64,000 nucleotides of DNA, taken from NCBI RefSeq assembly GCF_009914755.1, contig NC_060937.1; one strand, 5' to 3'. The position numbers and the translations under genes are program-made. The DNA comes from the human T2T-CHM13v2.0 reference genome, Homo sapiens. The notes beneath the pieces were generated by a model, which saw only the letters and a list, made by a program, of their open reading frames with translations, was not told the origin of the DNA and made no database searches. Below are positions 36,515 to 57,394 of this stretch, one piece after another. Positions within the stretch are counted from its first letter, which is position 1; every line of letters starts with the position of its first letter.

Positions 36515-37866
36515 CTGCTCACTAACCCTCAGCCTGACACCCAGCTATGTGTCGTTGTCTTGACACTGTGTGGGAAGCTTTGGTTGGGCAACACATTGTC
36601 AAAGTTAAAATCCAATGTATCTCCATCCATGAGGTCATTCCGAATGATGGATTCCATGTCACAGTCTAAGCGCTCAATGAACATGCCATCCAAGTCACTT
36701 GGGAGCTTCTCCTGGTGGAGAAGGCCCATTCTGCCATAGCCATTGCAGCTGCTCACGGAGGAGTAGCCCCCCAGGGCACTCATCTGCATGGGGTGGGGCA
36801 GAGGCACTTGTACAGGTGTCTTCACTTGGGTCAGGCGGTTCATACCCGAGGTGTGGGGCATGGTGCTTACCGTGTGGGGCAGGGGACGCCCGTTAACTGC
36901 AGATGTCTGCTGAGCATGTCCAGGGTGGGTATGGGAGCTGGGATTCATCATTTTGTTATGAGATGCCTGGCTGCCATAGGTTGACATGACCGAATTAGGG
37001 CCCATCATGACGTTCTGGCCCAGAACCCGGCTGTTGGGCTGGGCTACCCCAGGATCAACTGGTGTCATAATGTCATTATGGGGAGGAGAGTCAGAAGTCA
37101 GCAACTCCTTCAAGAGTCCAGGCGCACAGTTATACTGACTCATACCTCCATAACTCGACTTATTGTCCTGAAGTGTTTGTATAGGCATCTGGGGCAAAGG
37201 GCTCATGCTGGATTGGCCATATGTATATTTTTGGTAGTTTGGGCTGGGTGAATTCAAACTGGTGTTTGGTGGCGCAAACGAGTAGCACGGCGTCTGCTGC
37301 ATCATGGTGCCAGGTGAGGACTGGGTCGAAACAGTTAATGATGTTGGTGATGAGAGAAGGTTGAGATTATCCAAAAGATTTTCCATGTTTTCGGGATTGC
37401 TTATCTCAGACAGACTGGGTAAAGTAGAGGCCATCTTTGCGGCAGATGGCGGGTACACCATAGAATGCACATCCCCTTCTCCAAGATCATCCTGTTCGGT
37501 CATAATGGGTGAGAGTCTCCCACTAATAGTACTAGCATTTGAGCTAGTTCGAGGGCGAAATGTACTCCAGTTATCAAAGTCATCATTGCTGTGAGAGCCA
37601 GGGCTTGCAGGCCATTTGGAAAACTGTGATCCAGGGCTGTCCCCAGCACCCTCCTGGCCAGACTGGAGAGATGCTTTCTTCTTGGCAGCTCGGCTTCGGC
37701 TCTTAGCAAATTTACTGTTGTTGTCCATGGATGCAGCTCTTCTCCTAGGAGATTTCCCGCTCTTGCCACCCTCTGGATTGAGCATCCACCAAGAACTTTT
37801 TCCAGTTCCTTCATTCTGCACACGAATGAACTTGCTGTGTAGGGACAGATTATGACGAATTGAATT
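36515..37866 (-). other. FOXO1: FOXO1 exon 2 (1352 nt)
   Basis: Acceptor AG 37868-37867; donor CAG|GTAAGT with GT at 36514-36513, 14 nt after the TGA stop. Confidence 0.97.
36529..37866 (-). CDS. FOXO1: Forkhead box protein O1, coding part of exon 2 (residues ~211-655; C-terminal half of forkhead domain, NLS, NES, LxxLL, transactivation domain)
   Basis: Translation [34 protein letters not shown]...RRRAAS (Akt S256, codon 37731-37729)...RPRTSS (S319, 37542-37540)...LLKELL...[18 protein letters not shown]...HSWVSG-TGA matches human FOXO1. Acceptor ttacAG at 37868-37867, phase 0; 1338 nt = 445 codons + stop. Confidence 0.99.
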
Positions 37867-45012: not shown

Positions 45013-46792
45013 CTAGTGGGTTCTTCTTTATGGCAGGAATCCATAGCAGCTGAAGCGTGCATTTCAGATGTGAGCATCATCCTAGGGAAAACCTGTGGGG
45101 ACTCACAGGGAAAGCGGAAAGGTCCCCAGAGACCCCCAGCTACCTAGAACTGCCCACCACCCTGCGTGAAGGTGTGAGCAACAGCCACCAAATCCAACAA
45201 AAAGAACTTCACACTCAGAAACTGGAACATATGATTAAATGAACTCATTGTCCCAGAAATTCTAGAAATTCTTTCAAAATGCTAGACAAACTACATTTTC
45301 CCAAAGCATTTAATCTAATTTCTGTGAACTTTCTCAATGTGTGCGATTGTTATGCAGGCTCCCGGCATGGCCTTTATTCCCTCCCTCCTCCTTCCTCTCT
45401 TTTACACCAGCTCTTCCTGCACTTCCACAAGTGAAAACAAACTGAACTAGGAAAATCTATTCAACAGAGTTCCCATTAAGAGTTACTAATAAAACAACAA
45501 CTTTTAAAAATAATCCATTTTGTTTGCAAACAGAAGGAAAACATGACCTTTTGCCAACCCTTTTTTTACAAGAGTTGTCAGTAGACACACGTTAGCAATA
45601 GACAGTATGTAAATCAATGTTAGAAAGTGTTTAACACAAGATCTGCTGAGAATAGCTAATCTACATGCTTACACCCTAGATCCTTCCATAAGGCTGGTTC
45701 ATTTCCCAGAATCGTTTCCTTCTTGCCCGAATATCCTCAAAGACCACTATACCCCCCACTGCTACCCCCACTGTGCAGAGGTCTTAAAGCATCTCCACTG
45801 ATCCCAGGGCTGTGGACAGAGACTGGCGGCCTGGTAAAACCGGAAGGTACTTCGAAGGTCATCTGGTCTAACGCTCTTGTTTTATGTTAGGGAAACAAAG
45901 TTCAGAGAGATTACAACGCAGATGGGAAACTTATGGGTGTTCATTTACAAAAAATAGAACCACATGGAGCTTTAGTACTGGAAGAAATGTAAAACAAGTA
46001 CCAAGAACATGCAATATTCCTCCCCTAGCCAAGCCAATCCTTACCTATGGTCTCAAACCACTATAGACACAAATTTAGTTACACAGCTTTATCTCTAACT
46101 CTAGTCAGTCATTCCAAAGGAAGGGAAAATATGACTATCCACTGCAAAAGGAATGTAGGAGATTATGCTTGCATGTCAAATAGTACTAAAAAGACAAATG
46201 GAAGAACTCATAGGTGTCAGGAGAAGCTTCATGGACTTGGGAAGTACACTGTGAGGCAGAACCGGAGGTGCCGGCTCTGGAGGCAGAGTTACTGCTGGGC
46301 CCTTCTGAGTAGGTCCTGGATCTCATCACTAAGCCTGTTTTCACATCTGTAAAACAGTTACATGTACGGATGGCATGATATACATGATATACATGAAGTT
46401 GCCTGGTGCATCACCTGACACAATGACAATAAACACTGGCTATTTTGTTTTAGGAAGTGAAAGAATACATAAACAACAATTTTTTAAGCCATTATGAATG
46501 GTTGTAACTTGATTAAAAGTCACTCATCACAAACTTCCTGTTTAAAGGCAGCCAGCCTTCCTCAGGCTTATTTCCAATGTCCTCACAACCGAGCTGCAAT
46601 CCGTCATTTACAGAAAAATTGTGTTTTCTCCCTGTTAAGAAAATTTTAAATGAAAGAATTTGAGCATTTAACTAGCATATTCTGTCGGTTTTTGAGGTGA
46701 CCTATGTCAGAACACGTGTGTCCAGGATGTTGTTCAAGTTAAGGGAGATACAGCAGTTGTCTGATAATAGATTAATTTTTACATTTAAACAA

Positions 46793-48396: not shown

Positions 48397-49289
48397 AAGA
48401 GATCTGTAGGCTACCAAGGATTTCAAAGTGGAGCTTGTTTCCCCTAGGATTGATTTAGTTTTGATGCAGCCTGCAGTTACCCCTGGGGACCCTTTAACCC
48501 ACTCACCAGCTCCTCCCCAGGGAGGCACAGAGGCCAGGTACTGCCAAATCCACAGCAGACAGCCACAACTCCCCCATCTTGCCCATCAGTGACCTAAAGG
48601 GGCCTTCCTGAAACTTCGACTGAATTAACTACTGGAATACCCATGCTTTTTGCTGCTTCCGCCTAATGGCTGTCTCAGATGCAAAAGGCCCCACCACAGG
48701 AGAATATTAAGAGGAAACTCATTTGACGCTGAAGTAATTCTGCTGTTCCTAATGAAAATCTTTGTCTGTTTTATAGGCCATACAATTTTTCTAATCTGCA
48801 GTGGTCCTATAAACGCACAGCATTATAACGCAATTAACTACCTTATCTATTTGGCTACCAGAAGACTAAGGCACAACAAAGTTAAAACCAAAAACAAAGA
48901 ACGCATTAGGATCTACTCTCTTCTGATGAAGAATTTAAATTAGGCATAAAATAAAGCATAGCCATACCAATACTTTGATCCATTTTAAAGCTTTCTAAAA
49001 TTTTAAAGGACTAAAGTGAATTTTAAAGTATTTTGTCAGCATTACATTGATGAGCCTGTTAATCCTGTTCATGCTAGGTAAATGTATATTCAAGGTATGT
49101 TCCCGAATTGTTTACAGAAGCCAGTGAAAAACTTTATGGATATAAATTCAGAAGCAAGAACACTGAAACTTTGACAGATTAAAATCCCTAGGACAATATC
49201 CCACCCATAGCATGTACTACGTAGAACTGTTTTTATCCTAAATATGTTTGCTATCTGGAAAATCTAGGGAAGAATTTATCTATTGGATA

Positions 49290-49418
49290 CATAGTCTGTT
49301 TACTAAGAATTCTTAGTAAACAGAGTACAAAGTCTAGATTTATGTGTTTTTTCGCATAGTCTGTTTACTAAGAATTCTTAGTAAACAGAGTACCAAGTCT
49401 AGATTTATGTGTTTTTTC
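49290..49418. repeat. 65-bp-period tandem duplication, each unit with a perfect 30-bp palindrome
   Basis: Units 49290-49353 and 49355-49418 differ at one base; palindrome tctgtttactaagaattcttagtaaacaga. Confidence 0.97.
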
Positions 49419-51140
49419 TATTTTGGGACCTAGATATGATAATCCAGATTACAAAAACAACAGCAAACTGCAATAAAGTGTAACACTCTGAATTACACTA
49501 CCTGCAATGTTGGGTTTTCCTGTAGGGTTTACGTAGAATCTTGACACCAGCTTGCCCATTACTCTGTCTAGGAAGCCTAATGCAACAACGACTCGAGACT
49601 GCCGAATATATATGTTTGTTTATATACCACCCAAATATTATTCAAAGGTTGTCTCAAATCAAATAGCTTCCCAAATGGGTTGACCCAATAATAGCAAAAC
49701 TATTTGGGCCCAGGTTTATGCTAAAGAGAAACTCCCACCATCACAGAGATTGAGCCCAAGTCAGGGCTGTGGCCCAGCTTCCCACAGACATCAGGGATCC
49801 ACCTGAGGAGGCAGAGCACAATTACACTCTAAGACACAGTAGGTCTGCTGCGCAACAGCCCTGCTGTCCACACCTTCCTTCTAAGTAATACAAAAGACAT
49901 GGTCCCCCTCACAAACTGCTGCTCCCTCAGCATCACCAGAAGCCCAGGCGTGTTTGGGGACTCCAAAAGCAGCTCACATAAATGTTTCAGTAATGCTGCT
50001 TTCATTAACATACCTAAAAAGCCTCCATGACTCCTCCTGGCCCTCCTCAATGTGCCCACACTAAAGCCACACATCCCCATCAGCACACACCTAACATGAA
50101 TGAAGCCTACATTTTGCTTATTTGTAAGGCCAAATTTCCACCCCAGTGGAAGCACCTGTGCTGAGAGCTGCATGTTCATGTCTGTTTGAAAACTCAGCAC
50201 CCACTGAGCAGAAAAGAAGCCTGCAGAGCAGCTTTCACCACTGCGCAGTCACTGGCACTCCACCAGATGTGGGCACATCTGTGTCAGAGGTGCCCACCAG
50301 GACTTTCAGCTTAAATGCAGTCTCAGGTCAAAGCAAGCCAGCCCAGGAAGAATGTGCTTCCCCAAGATCACTCCTGGGCTAAAGGAATTCTGGAAGGCTC
50401 CAAGTTGAGTCTGCCCTGGAACCACATTTAGATGACTTGAGGACATCCCACTAGGAATTCTTTGGGCTCCAGAGAGAAGGGAGAATGTCAGGTAGGAAAA
50501 AAGGGATCCCTGAACCACCTGAGGGTCCCCACTTGAATGACTAAGCAAACCTTACCATATGGACAGTGTTCCTTGTATTAAATATTAAATGTTTTATTCT
50601 AATGCTGCAGTTCGAATCATGTCTTTTTTGGAAACATGGATGATATTGTTGTCATACGTTAAGACAAGACTATCTTTATAAACCTCCAAAGACCAAAACA
50701 AAAGAAAACGACAAACAAACAAACAAAACAAAAAAACCTCACAGTTGCCTTTGGAAGTTATCGACATCATTTTAAGAAAAGTCTTGATCTTTTAAAACAC
50801 ACTGGCTATGCGCAATACACATTTGTGTTTGAGGATGAAAACACAAAGATAATCTTAATAACTTCGGGCAAACTAGCAAAGGCAGAAGGAATGAATGATT
50901 AAATGAACCATTTTTTAGGATGACTCAAACCAACAGAAAATTAGAATCTCCCACACAAGCCAATAATTTGCGATGGTACACCTTAAACTCCTCTTTGGAA
51001 TTTTAGTCCTCATTGTTTCAGCGTTTTCACTTTCAATTTCCTCCAAAAGGGAACTGAATATCAACTATTGTGGCTAGAATCTTGCACACAAGTACAAACG
51101 TTTTTTTATCTCTTCCAAGCTACTATTCAAGGATACTCTG

Positions 51141-55300: not shown

Positions 55301-57394
55301 TGGAGCTTTACCTAACAAAGCTGACAACTGGTCCTAGAATGCTGATCCTGTAGATTGAGAACTTTTGTGCATTCTGGTTAAATTCCTACTCGGTATGAAA
55401 TCCTGGAGGCATGGTGCTTATAGTGACATTATGACAAAGATTCCCTGCAGCCAGCCTCCCATCCCACTCCACCTTCGGGACAGTCTTTATTCCCAAAGCA
55501 TCCCCAGCCACTGACTGTGTATCAGCATCCTCTGGACTCTTCCCTGCAAGTTCCCTGAAGATCAGATTTTCCTCTAACCATTGAGGTCTCCTGTAGCACC
55601 TCCAAAGTAGCTTCAGGACAAAGCAGCACACTATGGCCTACTAAAGCATTCTTCGGCATGTGCTCTACAAAATAATGGTTCCTTTTAGGGTGATTTGAAT
55701 TCACTGAAAAAATACCTTTGGGACACTCTGGCCACACAGAATTAAACAGGATTCCTAACTGTACAGTTTTTTAGAGCCTTGAGTACACAAAACAACACAA
55801 AACAAACAAGAGCAAAACTGTTCCCTTAGACTTTGTTTTGTTTTGTTGGTGGGATCACATGCATGCACATGCACACCCCTCCACGCACATACACATTTCT
55901 TTGCCCGCGCTTCTTGACAGACTATACCATGAAACTGATGTTCAGCAGCACACATTTTGGAAAATGCTGATCTAATGGCAAGACGGTGGTAATGAGGAAG
56001 AAAATCTAAGTCTGGCTCTATCTTTCTGACTGGACACATTTTTACATCCTTTATGTCTAAGCTTTCTTGTCTATAAAGTAGGAAAACAATGTCTGTCCTA
56101 AATGCCCCACAGAATTGTAATGGGTATAAGTGCTTCAAAAAGCATAAAGGGCTACGTATTGGTGAGATTTTATGATTATGCCAAGGTAGAAGGAGGGGCT
56201 CTCACTGAAAGCCCCAGTGCTGCCCAAACTTCCTACCAAATAACACACCTGCCCTAGGTAGCTCAGAAAGCCCAGGTGTTCTGTGGGACTTGCTGCTAGA
56301 AGTAATTGAACCATGCCTTACTCTTTGATGGATGAAGGAGGAGACCAGACAATCCACGCCAGGTCGGATTACTCCGTGCGAAGCAAGACCCACAGTAGAC
56401 CTCTTTCTCCTACATCCCATTCCCCAACAGTCAACATCATCTTCAGAAATACACAGGCAGAGTTATGACAGGAGAAGAATGGGCCAAATCTTTTCCATCT
56501 CCTTAAATGCTTCTGTAAAAAGACAAGCAAGGTATAGGAAGGAACAAGCAAAGAAGGGGGAAAGAAGACAGGAGAAGAGTGATTCTGAAGTTGACTGCTG
56601 AGAAGGCAGCAGAATGAAAAAAAAAGGGGGCGGGGGCGGTACAATCCTAAGACTTCTCCCAGGCCAGGAAAACACTCTAGCCTTGGCTGTGACACTCCTC
56701 CTCATGCTGTTAGGAGCCATGATGTGAGCACATAGGCAGTTTCTAGGGTCACCACAATAGAGCTTGGAAGATGAGGAACCTGTACACAAGGTTTCCCCAT
56801 TAGTGTAATATGTGGTGGGATCAGTGTAGAACCTAACTAGGCAAAAACACCATCTGGGATTGGAAAGTTTATTTACAACACCTGACAGTGAACATCAATC
56901 ATGACACCCCTGAAACCTATTGCACACTATTTGCAACTAAAATACAGGGTGCTCTTTATTACCAATTATACGAGCTCTGTATGGTCAATTACTTCTTTTA
57001 CAAGACAATTTTGATGAATACAATAATGTTGCTTCCAGGTGGTGAATATAATGGGGCTTTTTACTTTGTAGATTACCTTTGCATGTTGTCTTTTTTGCTG
57101 CTGCTGTTAAAGAAAGAGCATTTTACCTTTCATAATGTTGCTACATTGGGGTAACAAACAAAAACCCAGGCATTTTCCTTTCTCATATATTCATTCAAAA
57201 ACAAAGCAGTTCCTATCAAGTGGAATATATCCAAGTGAAATATATATAATGTTTATACAACACACACACACCTGCATAACCAAATAATAAGTTGTAGTTT
57301 GCAAACTATATGCTAACATTTTTGTTTTTCCAGGAAACAATATATCTTTCCTTAAGCAGGAGACGGGGAAAGAGAACAACAATTTTACACAAAA

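What the first reader, a model, noticed from the sequence alone, without database searches (positions are those of the whole stretch)
49108..49418. Duplicated perfect palindrome made of inverted FOXO sites inside FOXO1 intron 1: candidate autoregulatory array
Seen: a perfect 30-bp palindrome TCTGTTTACTAAGAATTCTTAGTAAACAGA (49295-49324) recurs 65 bp later (49360-49389) in a 63/64-identical tandem duplication. Each palindrome has TGTTTAC and its inverse GTAAACA 12 bp apart, and a full TTGTTTAC lies at 49108-49115, giving five cores in ~280 bp. Established: (T)TGTTTAC is the DAF-16/FOXO binding element, and spacer-less AT-rich palindromes can extrude cruciforms or form RNA hairpins. Inference: a recent duplication doubled a forkhead site pair within the FOXO1 gene, possibly an autoregulatory enhancer of variable copy number. 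I do not know of a description of it.
Basis: partly seen in the sequence, partly recalled or inferred. Interest (0 to 1): 0.8.

Follow-up and report, generated by a model that had tools for sequence, protein, structure and literature searches.

The report
Duplicated palindrome in FOXO1 intron 1
A 65-base stretch in the first intron of the human FOXO1 gene, holding a perfect 30-base palindrome with two forkhead-type binding motifs, has been copied in tandem; it is real and unique in the genome, but it looks like a by-product of DNA copying errors and nothing yet shows it to be a control switch.

Summary
A 65-bp-period tandem duplication (49290-49353 / 49355-49418, 63 of 64 identical) carries in each copy a perfect, spacerless 30-bp palindrome with TGTTTAC and GTAAACA 12 bp apart. 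A fifth core, TTGTTTAC, lies at 49108-49115. The palindrome is far beyond chance: about 8e-5 expected per window, and the next longest is 14 bp. The unit, the palindrome and both flanks are single-copy in the T2T genome, so it is not a dispersed repeat.

The "array of five FOXO sites" is not independent evidence of function. Four of the five cores descend from one ancestral site through two copying events. The window as a whole holds 11 cores against 10.3 expected. TGTTTAC-N12-GTAAACA is not enriched genome-wide (31 places against 71 for a reversed control). Orientation and spacing do not match the published cooperative forkhead dimer sites (DIV0/DIV2).

My best reading (about 0.65) is a neutral product of replication template switching, which made the palindrome, followed by a tandem duplication. 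Forkhead occupancy or enhancer activity, copy-number polymorphism and age could not be tested with these tools. No chromatin data, primate alignments or population data were available.

The parts
49108..49115 (+). Isolated TTGTTTAC, a full 8-mer forkhead/FOXO-type site, 182 bp upstream (+ strand) of the duplication
49245..49251 (+).
49290..49354 (.). Tandem copy 1 (65-bp period; the last base, G at 49354, is the junction base not shared with copy 2)
49355..49418 (.). Tandem copy 2, 63 of 64 identical to copy 1 (C at 49394 against A at 49329)
49295..49324 (.). Perfect spacerless 30-bp palindrome 1 (36 bp, 49292-49327, with one mismatched pair). It holds TGTTTAC at 49297-49303 and GTAAACA at 49316-49322, with GAATTC at the centre
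49360..49389 (.). Perfect spacerless 30-bp palindrome 2, identical to palindrome 1. It holds TGTTTAC at 49362-49368 and GTAAACA at 49381-49387
49292..49392 (-). Predicted long hairpin in the FOXO1 pre-mRNA sense (also in single-stranded DNA). Palindrome 2 pairs with palindrome 1 over 30 perfect bp plus extensions, with about 29-35 nt between
   Evidence: (I1)

Best explanation
This is a lineage-specific product of two replication errors in neutral intronic DNA, with no demonstrated function.

Step 1 (inferred): a template switch during replication, in which the nascent strand folds back and copies itself, turned a stretch that already held one forkhead-like 7-mer into a spacerless perfect palindrome. 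That automatically created the inverted second 7-mer.

Step 2 (shown as structure, mechanism inferred): a 64-65-bp segment around the palindrome was duplicated head to tail. The junction is blunt, with a one-base filler or mutation. The duplication may have been provoked by hairpin-induced fork stalling.

The result is four forkhead cores that are copies of one, next to two unrelated forkhead-type matches in AT-rich DNA. Purified forkhead domains would very probably bind these cores, since they match the consensus. Nothing shows that they are occupied or regulate FOXO1 in cells.
For: 1. Shape. The palindrome is perfect, has no spacer and is a huge outlier: arms of 15 against a background that stops at 7, and 8e-5 expected per window. 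That is the signature of a copying mechanism, not of point-mutation drift.

2. The mechanism is documented and common. In PMC10710096 (passages read), template switching generates perfect base pairing for whole hairpins in one event. The paper reports 53,666 putative events in genic regions on the primate-to-human lineage, of which 31,007 made a new stem.

3. Both palindromes are identical, and the two copies differ at 1 of 64 positions. This implies palindrome first, duplication second, both young enough that neutral decay need not have started. My arithmetic with recalled rates: the first hit in 60 palindromic bases is expected after about 17-33 Myr.

4. It is not a transposon or dispersed repeat. 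The unit, the palindrome (with up to 3 mismatches) and the 590-bp and 582-bp flanks match only themselves in the 3.1-Gb assembly. A word-7 blastn against the window gives nothing better than E = 0.063.

5. There is no sign of selection for forkhead sites as such. The window holds 11 cores against 10.26 expected, and 9 after collapsing the duplication. TGTTTAC-N12-GTAAACA occurs at 31 genomic places against 71 for the reversed control, and only the 2 here are palindromic throughout.

6. The setting is AT-rich and CpG-poor (GC 0.32, CpG observed/expected 0.26).

7. Short cruciform-forming repeats are reported as intrinsically mutagenic (PMC5295012, passage; PMC7680136, passage). This is compatible with the palindrome having provoked the duplication.
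Against: 1. The coincidence is real. From the base rate (11 per 128,000 strand positions), the chance that a random 15-bp arm holds the exact 7-mer forkhead core in either orientation is about 0.15%. From the RYAAAYA rate it is about 2%. Here it happened inside a forkhead gene.

2. The 320-bp stretch is the densest RYAAAYA cluster in the window: 6 matches, a count reached by only 4 of 6368 sliding windows. Homotypic clusters are a known enhancer feature (recalled).

3. FOXO proteins do feed back on FOXO genes. FOXO3 binds a site in the FOXO1 promoter (Essaghir 2009, as described in review PMC4511623, passage).

4. The template-switch step cannot be shown without an outgroup sequence. No junction microhomology was found to support simple slippage.

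5. About 4 such palindromes per genome are expected by pure chance under an i.i.d. model, so chance origin of the palindrome is not strictly excluded at genome scale.
Confidence: 0.65

Rival explanations
1. It is a forkhead-occupied regulatory element. FOXO1/3, or pioneer FOXA proteins, bind the four or five cores as independent monomers. The element acts as an intronic enhancer or silencer of FOXO1 (auto- or cross-regulation), and the duplication doubled its dose.
For: - The cores match the canonical forkhead motif RYAAAYA quoted in PMC8034652 (abstract). One site is the full TTGTTTAC.
- It is the densest RYAAAYA cluster in the 64-kb window.
- A forkhead core in the arm has a low chance probability (about 0.15-2%, my arithmetic).
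- FOXO3-to-FOXO1 promoter feedback is known.
- Intronic enhancer elements exist in FOXO1 (PMC7226896, passage; no coordinates seen).
Against: - Four of the five cores come from two copying events, so the cluster is not independent evidence.
- There is no window-wide excess.
- The N12 arrangement is under-represented, not enriched, against its control genome-wide (31 against 71).
- Published cooperative forkhead dimers need compact DIV0/DIV2 spacing. Spacers of 1-10 bp cut FOXA1 cooperativity by at least tenfold, and FOXO1 binds DIV1, DIV3 and DIV4 mainly as a monomer. Here the gap is 12 bp and the orientation is the opposite one.
- By extrapolating the window rate, the genome holds roughly half a million such 7-mers, most of them unbound (general knowledge).
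- The FOXO feedback site found in print is in the promoter.
- One cold-shock FOXO1 CUT&Tag differential-binding table has no row assigned to FOXO1 (PMC10991392, supplement 3, sheet 1). This is weak: differential peaks only, one cell type.
Confidence: 0.12
2. It is a structure-prone DNA site. The palindromes form hairpins or cruciforms on single strands during replication. This makes the spot locally unstable (65-bp copy-number change, deletions) and a possible contributor to breaks in FOXO1 intron 1, the region broken in t(2;13) alveolar rhabdomyosarcoma.
For: - Single-stranded DNA folds strongly: -30.7 kcal/mol for 141 nt, z = -9.7, 0 of 200 shuffles as good. Each palindrome alone gives -11.8 kcal/mol.
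- Short cruciform-forming repeats are reported to be mutagenic in mammalian cells (passages).
- A duplication did happen right here.
- FOXO1 intron 1 (104.7 kb) is the ARMS breakpoint region (PMC5470208, section 7).
Against: - It is 30-36 bp long, against the hundreds of bp of the palindromic AT-rich repeats that drive recurrent translocations (recalled). PMC7680136 (passage) ties mutations and instability to palindromes over 50 bp.
- The six mapped ARMS breakpoints in PMC5470208 are described as spread over the intron. No coordinates were readable, and no palindrome link was stated.
- Only one assembly was seen, so instability is not shown.
Confidence: 0.08
3. It is an RNA-level element. In the FOXO1 pre-mRNA the two palindromes pair into a hairpin with a stem of about 34 bp and a loop of about 30 nt, which is pri-miRNA-like. 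It is processed into small RNAs or edited by ADAR, as in young miRNAs born by template switching.
For: - The sense-strand RNA folds to -48.5 kcal/mol, z = -8.9, 0 of 200 shuffles as good. This is more stable than the two local hairpins together (-17.5 and -17.8).
- Template-switch hairpins in introns have yielded at least 18 human miRNA genes (PMC10710096, abstract).
- Generic miRNA covariance models align to 49283-49401.
Against: - All 26 Rfam matches are far below their gathering scores. The best is mir-5014 at 39 bits against 101, and several are plant families, so the models only see a hairpin.
- No miRNA is annotated in the window, according to the hub's gene table.
- FOXO1 is absent from the three supplementary files of PMC10710096 that were held as text.
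- Only 18 of 6,054 miRNA-sized template-switch stems became genes in that paper.
Confidence: 0.04
4. It is an assembly or sequencing artefact: a false duplication around a hairpin-forming sequence.
For: Palindromes can disturb polymerases and consensus calling (general knowledge). Only one assembly was available.
Against: The two copies differ at an internal base (49329 against 49394), which a simple stutter artefact would not produce. The 129-bp array is far shorter than the long reads behind a T2T assembly (general knowledge). Reads could not be inspected.
Confidence: 0.02

Closest known systems
Template-switch mutation (TSM) hairpins of the primate lineage (PMC10710096; bioRxiv 10.1101/2021.04.15.439925 seen in a listing only)
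   Same: Perfect reverse-complement arms that appear in unique, transcribed intronic DNA. It is a one-step origin of a whole stem. Arm length (15-18 nt) and, after the duplication, a stem in the miRNA size range.
   Different: The ancestral state was not seen, so the one-step origin is inferred. Here the hairpin was then tandemly duplicated, giving two palindromes that can also pair with each other. There is no evidence of small-RNA production.
DIV0 / DIV2 palindromic forkhead dimer sites (FOXA1: PMC6009666; FOXO1: PMC8034652)
   Same: Two forkhead half-sites in inverted orientation on one short palindromic DNA. FOXO1 is one of the proteins shown to use such sites.
   Different: DIV sites are compact: D0 has overlapping cores (AAATATTT) and DIV2 has no spacer. 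They run RYAAAYA first, then its complement. Here the order is TGTTTAC first and GTAAACA second, which is the opposite (CON-like) orientation, with 12 bp between the 7-mers. Spacers of 1-10 bp abolish or strongly reduce cooperativity in those papers.
FOXO-responsive site in the FOXO1 promoter (Essaghir et al. 2009, known to me only through review PMC4511623)
   Same: A forkhead site at the FOXO1 locus that would let a FOXO protein raise FOXO1 transcription.
   Different: That site is in the promoter and was tested experimentally. This one lies in intron 1, about 11.4 kb from exon 2, and is untested.
Palindromic AT-rich repeats (PATRRs) and short mutagenic inverted repeats
   Same: An AT-rich (73% A+T) spacerless palindrome able to form hairpins or cruciforms, sitting at a spot that has undergone rearrangement (a duplication).
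   Different: PATRRs are hundreds of bp long (recalled). This one is 30-36 bp, at the bottom of the range reported as destabilising.
Two-copy minisatellite-type tandem duplication
   Same: Period 65, 2.0 copies, 98% identity, no indels.
   Different: The unit contains a perfect palindrome. There is no junction microhomology and no decayed third copy. Polymorphism is unknown.

Membership tests
Forkhead (FKH) / FOXO DBE binding site | Match to the core RYAAAYA (GTAAACA) | tested here: met
   Exact TGTTTAC or GTAAACA at 49109, 49297, 49316, 49362 and 49381, plus TGTTTGC at 49245. The consensus is as quoted in PMC8034652 (abstract).
   Met at 49108-49115. The four palindrome sites read CTGTTTAC, a 7 of 8 match.
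Forkhead (FKH) / FOXO DBE binding site | Occupancy by a forkhead protein in cells | not testable with these tools
   No ChIP or accessibility data were available. The only table seen (PMC10991392, supplement 3, sheet 1) has no differential FOXO1 CUT&Tag row assigned to FOXO1.
DIV0/DIV2 cooperative forkhead dimer site | Diverging orientation: RYAAAYA followed by its reverse complement (D0 core AAATATTT) | tested here: not met
   Here TGTTTAC precedes GTAAACA. The orientation of D0 was read from the passage.
DIV0/DIV2 cooperative forkhead dimer site | Compact half-site spacing (overlapping, or no spacer) | tested here: not met
   There are 12 bp between the 7-mers. Spacers of 1-10 bp reduce FOXA1 cooperativity at least tenfold, and FOXO1 binds DIV1, DIV3 and DIV4 mainly as a monomer.
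Template-switch (TSM) generated hairpin | Perfect reverse-complement arms adjacent to each other in otherwise unique sequence | tested here: met
   15 + 15 perfect bases with 0 spacer. Unique in the genome.
Template-switch (TSM) generated hairpin | Outgroup or ancestral sequence lacks one arm, which is replaced in one step | not testable with these tools
   No primate or other mammalian genome could be searched. states that the genome has no relatives held.
Interspersed repeat / transposon (including MITE-like palindromic elements) | Multiple dispersed copies in the genome | tested here: not met
   The unit, the palindrome (with up to 3 mismatches) and both flanks match only this locus. No similarity elsewhere in the window better than E = 0.063. 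Caveat: very old repeats (below about 70% identity) could escape these searches, and no repeat-consensus library was available.
microRNA precursor (any Rfam family) | Score at or above the family's gathering threshold | tested here: not met
   The best match is mir-5014 at 39 bits against 101. None of the 26 listed matches reaches its threshold.
Tandem repeat (minisatellite-size) | Head-to-tail copies detected by TRF | tested here: met
   Period 65, 2.0 copies, 98% matches, score 251.
Tandem repeat (minisatellite-size) | Copy number varies between individuals | not testable with these tools
   Only one haploid assembly is held.
PATRR-type fragile palindrome | Long (hundreds of bp) AT-rich near-perfect palindrome (definition recalled) | tested here: not met
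   30 bp perfect, 36 bp with one mismatched pair.

The most novel reading that the evidence does not exclude
Two primate-lineage copying errors turned a single forkhead site into a four-site array inside FOXO1. In some tissues the array is occupied by FOXO or FOXA proteins and tunes FOXO1 output. It would also tune the PAX3-FOXO1 fusion whenever the break lies upstream of it, because the site stays with exons 2-3. A 1-copy versus 2-copy polymorphism would act as a natural dose series. This would be a worked example of template switching plus duplication creating a transcription-factor feedback element de novo.
Probability: 0.07. Interest if true: 0.6.

Novelty: new member of a known kind. Interest (0 to 1): 0.3.

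Why it matters
As it stands, this is a clean, well-delimited example of how replication errors can multiply a transcription-factor motif without selection: one site becomes four. That is a useful caution against reading motif clusters as regulatory arrays.

If the site proved to be forkhead-bound and dose-sensitive, it would show de novo birth of a feedback element in a gene central to insulin signalling, ageing and rhabdomyosarcoma. It would also offer a natural 65-bp copy-number allele to test it with. If it proved unstable, it would be a candidate local fragile point in the intron that breaks in t(2;13).

Tried and rejected
- **Dispersed repeat or MITE: rejected.** Only self-matches for the unit, the palindrome and the flanks.
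- **Decayed third tandem copy or junction microhomology: none found.** Alignment of the unit against the flanks is no better than shuffles (205 of 300 and 80 of 300 shuffles score as well), and no in-register identity continues beyond 64 bp.
- **Known RNA family: rejected.** All Rfam hits are sub-threshold hairpin look-alikes.
- **Bacterial-type promoter/terminator scan.** It is irrelevant to a human intron and gave nothing (1 promoter-like site against 3.6 expected, 0 terminators).
- **CpG island or GC-rich promoter-like context: no**.
- **DIV-type forkhead dimer site: rejected** on orientation and spacing.
- **Literature.**
  - The 28-base core string occurs in 0 papers.
  - Searches on FOXO1, autoregulation, intron 1 and enhancer, on FOXO1 intron 1, breakpoint and palindrome and on the FOXO1 super enhancer turned up no description of this element.
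  - The rhabdomyosarcoma papers read in passages (PMC5470208, PMC7226896) give no coordinates in their text that could be compared.
  - Lu et al. 2015 (PMC6013304) is not held.
  - The supplements of PMC10710096 held as text do not mention FOXO1. They may list only miRNA loci, so this does not exclude the site from that paper's 53,666 events.
- **FOXO1 CUT&Tag table of PMC10991392.** No row is assigned to FOXO1. It covers differential peaks only, so it is not informative about constitutive binding.

Full report
**What is there.** Reading the window at 48900-49700 confirms the finding base for base.

- A 64-nt direct repeat occupies 49290-49353 and 49355-49418, at 98% identity with start-to-start spacing of 65 (D1). 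TRF gives period 65, 2.0 copies, 98% matches, no indels and score 251.
- Each copy holds the perfect, spacerless 30-bp palindrome TCTGTTTACTAAGAATTCTTAGTAAACAGA, at 49295-49324 and 49360-49389. It extends to 36 bp with one mismatched pair (I2 and I3).
- TGTTTAC or GTAAACA occurs at 49109, 49297, 49316, 49362 and 49381. 49108-49115 reads TTGTTTAC.
- A sixth match to the degenerate forkhead core RYAAAYA, TGTTTGC, lies at 49245.
- The copies differ at one internal base (A at 49329, C at 49394) and at the 65th base (G at 49354, T at 49419). In-register identity stops exactly at the 64-nt borders. There is no junction microhomology. No decayed third copy is present: alignment of the unit to the flanks scores no better than shuffles, with 205 of 300 and 80 of 300 shuffles scoring as well.

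**Context.** The hub's table places the site in intron 1 of FOXO1 (minus strand), about 11.4 kb from exon 2. I checked the host gene. The annotated coding part of exon 2 (window:36529-37866, minus strand) is an open 445-codon frame. It carries the Pfam domains FOXO_KIX_bdg, FOXO-TAD and the C-terminal part of Forkhead. The site sits in an AT-rich trough (GC 0.32) with CpG observed/expected of 0.26.

**Is it more than chance?**

- The palindrome: yes. Spacerless perfect palindromes in the window have arms of 6 (10 cases) and 7 (5 cases), and then jump to 15 (these two). An i.i.d. model expects 8e-5 arms of 15 or more per window. It also expects about 4 per genome, so at the scale of a whole-genome scan chance is not strictly excluded.
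- The tandem duplication is unambiguous.
- The motif cluster needs care. The window holds 11 exact cores against 10.26 +/- 2.79 in dinucleotide shuffles, and 44 of 100 shuffles reach 11. It holds 9 once the second copy is removed.
- The 320-bp stretch is the densest RYAAAYA cluster in the window: 6 matches, a count reached by 4 of 6368 sliding windows. But four of those six are one ancestral site multiplied by an inversion and a duplication. Three independent sites in 320 bp is unremarkable: about 5% of windows have 3 or more.

**Is it a repeat family?** No.

- The 65-mer finds only this locus in the 3.1-Gb assembly. It gives four matches: the two copies, plus their palindromic reverse hits.
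- The 30-mer with up to 3 mismatches finds only the two copies here.
- The 590-bp left flank and the 582-bp right flank each find only themselves.
- A word-7 blastn of 48900-49800 against the whole window gives nothing beyond self-hits better than E = 0.063.
- Caveat: the genome search scores only the best candidates, and no repeat-consensus library was available. A very old, highly diverged repeat cannot be excluded.

**Structure potential.**

- As single-stranded DNA, the 141 nt around the array fold to -30.7 kcal/mol. Shuffles give -8.65 +/- 2.28, z = -9.7, and 0 of 200 fold as well.
- As RNA in the FOXO1 sense the value is -48.5 kcal/mol (z = -8.9).
- In both cases the minimum-energy fold pairs palindrome 1 with palindrome 2. 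This gives a stem of about 34 bp with roughly 30 nt between.
- Each palindrome alone forms a 13-bp stem with a 4-nt loop. The energies are -11.8 kcal/mol as DNA and -17.5 and -17.8 kcal/mol as RNA.
- Rfam gives 26 matches at E up to 10, and all are far below their gathering scores. The best is mir-5014 at 39 bits against 101, and several are plant miRNA families. The models only recognise a hairpin.

**How it most likely arose.** A spacerless perfect palindrome in unique DNA is what replication template switching produces.

- PMC10710096 (passages) describes intra-strand fold-back or inter-strand switches that create perfect base pairing for whole hairpins in a single event.
- It counts 53,666 putative events in genic regions along the primate-to-human lineage. 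Of these, 31,007 made a new stem, 6,054 were of miRNA size, and at least 18 became miRNA genes.
- If the ancestral stretch already held one forkhead-like 7-mer, the switch necessarily created the inverted partner at a spacing set by the fold-back point.
- Because both palindromes are identical, the palindrome came first and the 65-bp duplication second.
- With one difference in 64 bases and recalled neutral rates of 0.5-1e-9 per site per year, the duplication's point age is about 8-16 Myr. The Poisson range is about 0.2-87 Myr. So 'recent' is plausible but not established.
- At those rates the first substitution in the 60 palindromic bases is expected only after about 17-33 Myr. Their perfection therefore needs no selection.
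- Reviews state that short cruciform-forming repeats are intrinsically mutagenic in mammalian cells (PMC5295012; PMC7680136). The hairpin may have provoked the neighbouring duplication. That step is inference.

**Does it look like a forkhead regulatory device?**

- The cores match the canonical motif, and forkhead domains would be expected to bind them in vitro.
- The arrangement is not one of the documented cooperative forms. The FOXA1 DIV (D0) element has overlapping cores, AAATATTT, with cooperativity of about 56. The converging CON element gave only 1.8. Spacers of 1-10 bp lowered cooperativity at least tenfold (PMC6009666).
- FOXO1 dimerises on DIV0 (cooperativity 54) and DIV2 (two motifs with no spacer, 4.5), but binds DIV1, DIV3 and DIV4 mainly as a monomer (PMC8034652).
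- Here TGTTTAC comes first and GTAAACA second, the opposite orientation, and 12 bp lie between them. Independent monomer binding is the expectation.
- Genome-wide, TGTTTAC-N12-GTAAACA occurs at 31 places against 71 for the reversed control pattern. Only the two here are palindromic through the spacer. The arrangement is not a selected class.
- The FOXO feedback on FOXO1 that I could find in print acts through a site in the promoter (Essaghir 2009, as described in review PMC4511623).
- An 'intronic enhancer element' of FOXO1 is mentioned in PMC7226896, but no coordinates were readable.
- A FOXO1 CUT&Tag differential-binding table (PMC10991392, supplement 3, sheet 1) has no row assigned to FOXO1. 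This is weak: differential peaks in one cell type.

**What speaks for function.** By my arithmetic from the and base rates, a random 15-bp arm would hold the exact forkhead 7-mer with probability of about 0.15%, and the degenerate core with about 2%. That this happened inside a forkhead gene is a genuine coincidence. Two things discount it: the story was chosen post hoc, and roughly half a million such 7-mers sit in the genome (extrapolated). I therefore keep a forkhead-occupied regulatory element as the main rival (0.12). Below it I place a structure-prone or fragile DNA site (0.08), given that FOXO1 intron 1 is the 104.7-kb breakpoint region of t(2;13) (PMC5470208, section 7). After that come an RNA hairpin or young miRNA (0.04) and an assembly artefact (0.02).

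**What could not be done.** No chromatin, ChIP, conservation, primate-genome or population data are reachable with these tools. Occupancy, age, ancestral state and polymorphism are therefore all open. On whether the element is in print:

- The 28-base core string occurs in 0 papers of the searched library.
- The topical searches returned no description of it.
- Subscription journals, and supplements not held as text, were not covered.

**Verdict.** The 'autoregulatory array' reading rests on motif copies that are not independent and on an arrangement that no known forkhead binding mode requires. The most economical account is a neutral product of two replication errors. I rate interest as modest (0.3). 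It is a new instance of known kinds: a template-switch-type palindrome and a tandem duplication.

Noticed in passing
window 45521-45532: A 12-bp perfect palindrome, TGTTTGCAAACA, made of two overlapping inverted forkhead-type half-sites (TGTTTGC / GCAAACA) and preceded by TT. It is a compact inverted forkhead pair about 3.8 kb from the finding, also in intron 1.
   Followed up: no
window 57295-57308: A 14-bp perfect palindrome, TAGTTTGCAAACTA. It is one of five 14-bp palindromes, the longest in the window apart from the finding.
   Followed up: no
window 49762-49778 and 49847-49863: An inverted repeat with 17-nt arms at 88% complementarity, 68 nt apart. It sits in a GC-richer (about 50%) but CpG-poor stretch, 49750-50250, just beyond the AT-rich trough that holds the finding.
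   Followed up: no
window 49526-49542: GTTTACGTAGAATCTT resembles the left arm and centre of the palindrome (15 of 17 with one gap). However, 80 of 300 shuffles of the flank score as well, so this is probably chance.
   Followed up: partly
window 36529-37866 (minus strand): The annotated coding part of FOXO1 exon 2 is an open 445-codon frame with FOXO_KIX_bdg, FOXO-TAD and Forkhead Pfam domains. This confirms the host gene.
   Followed up: yes
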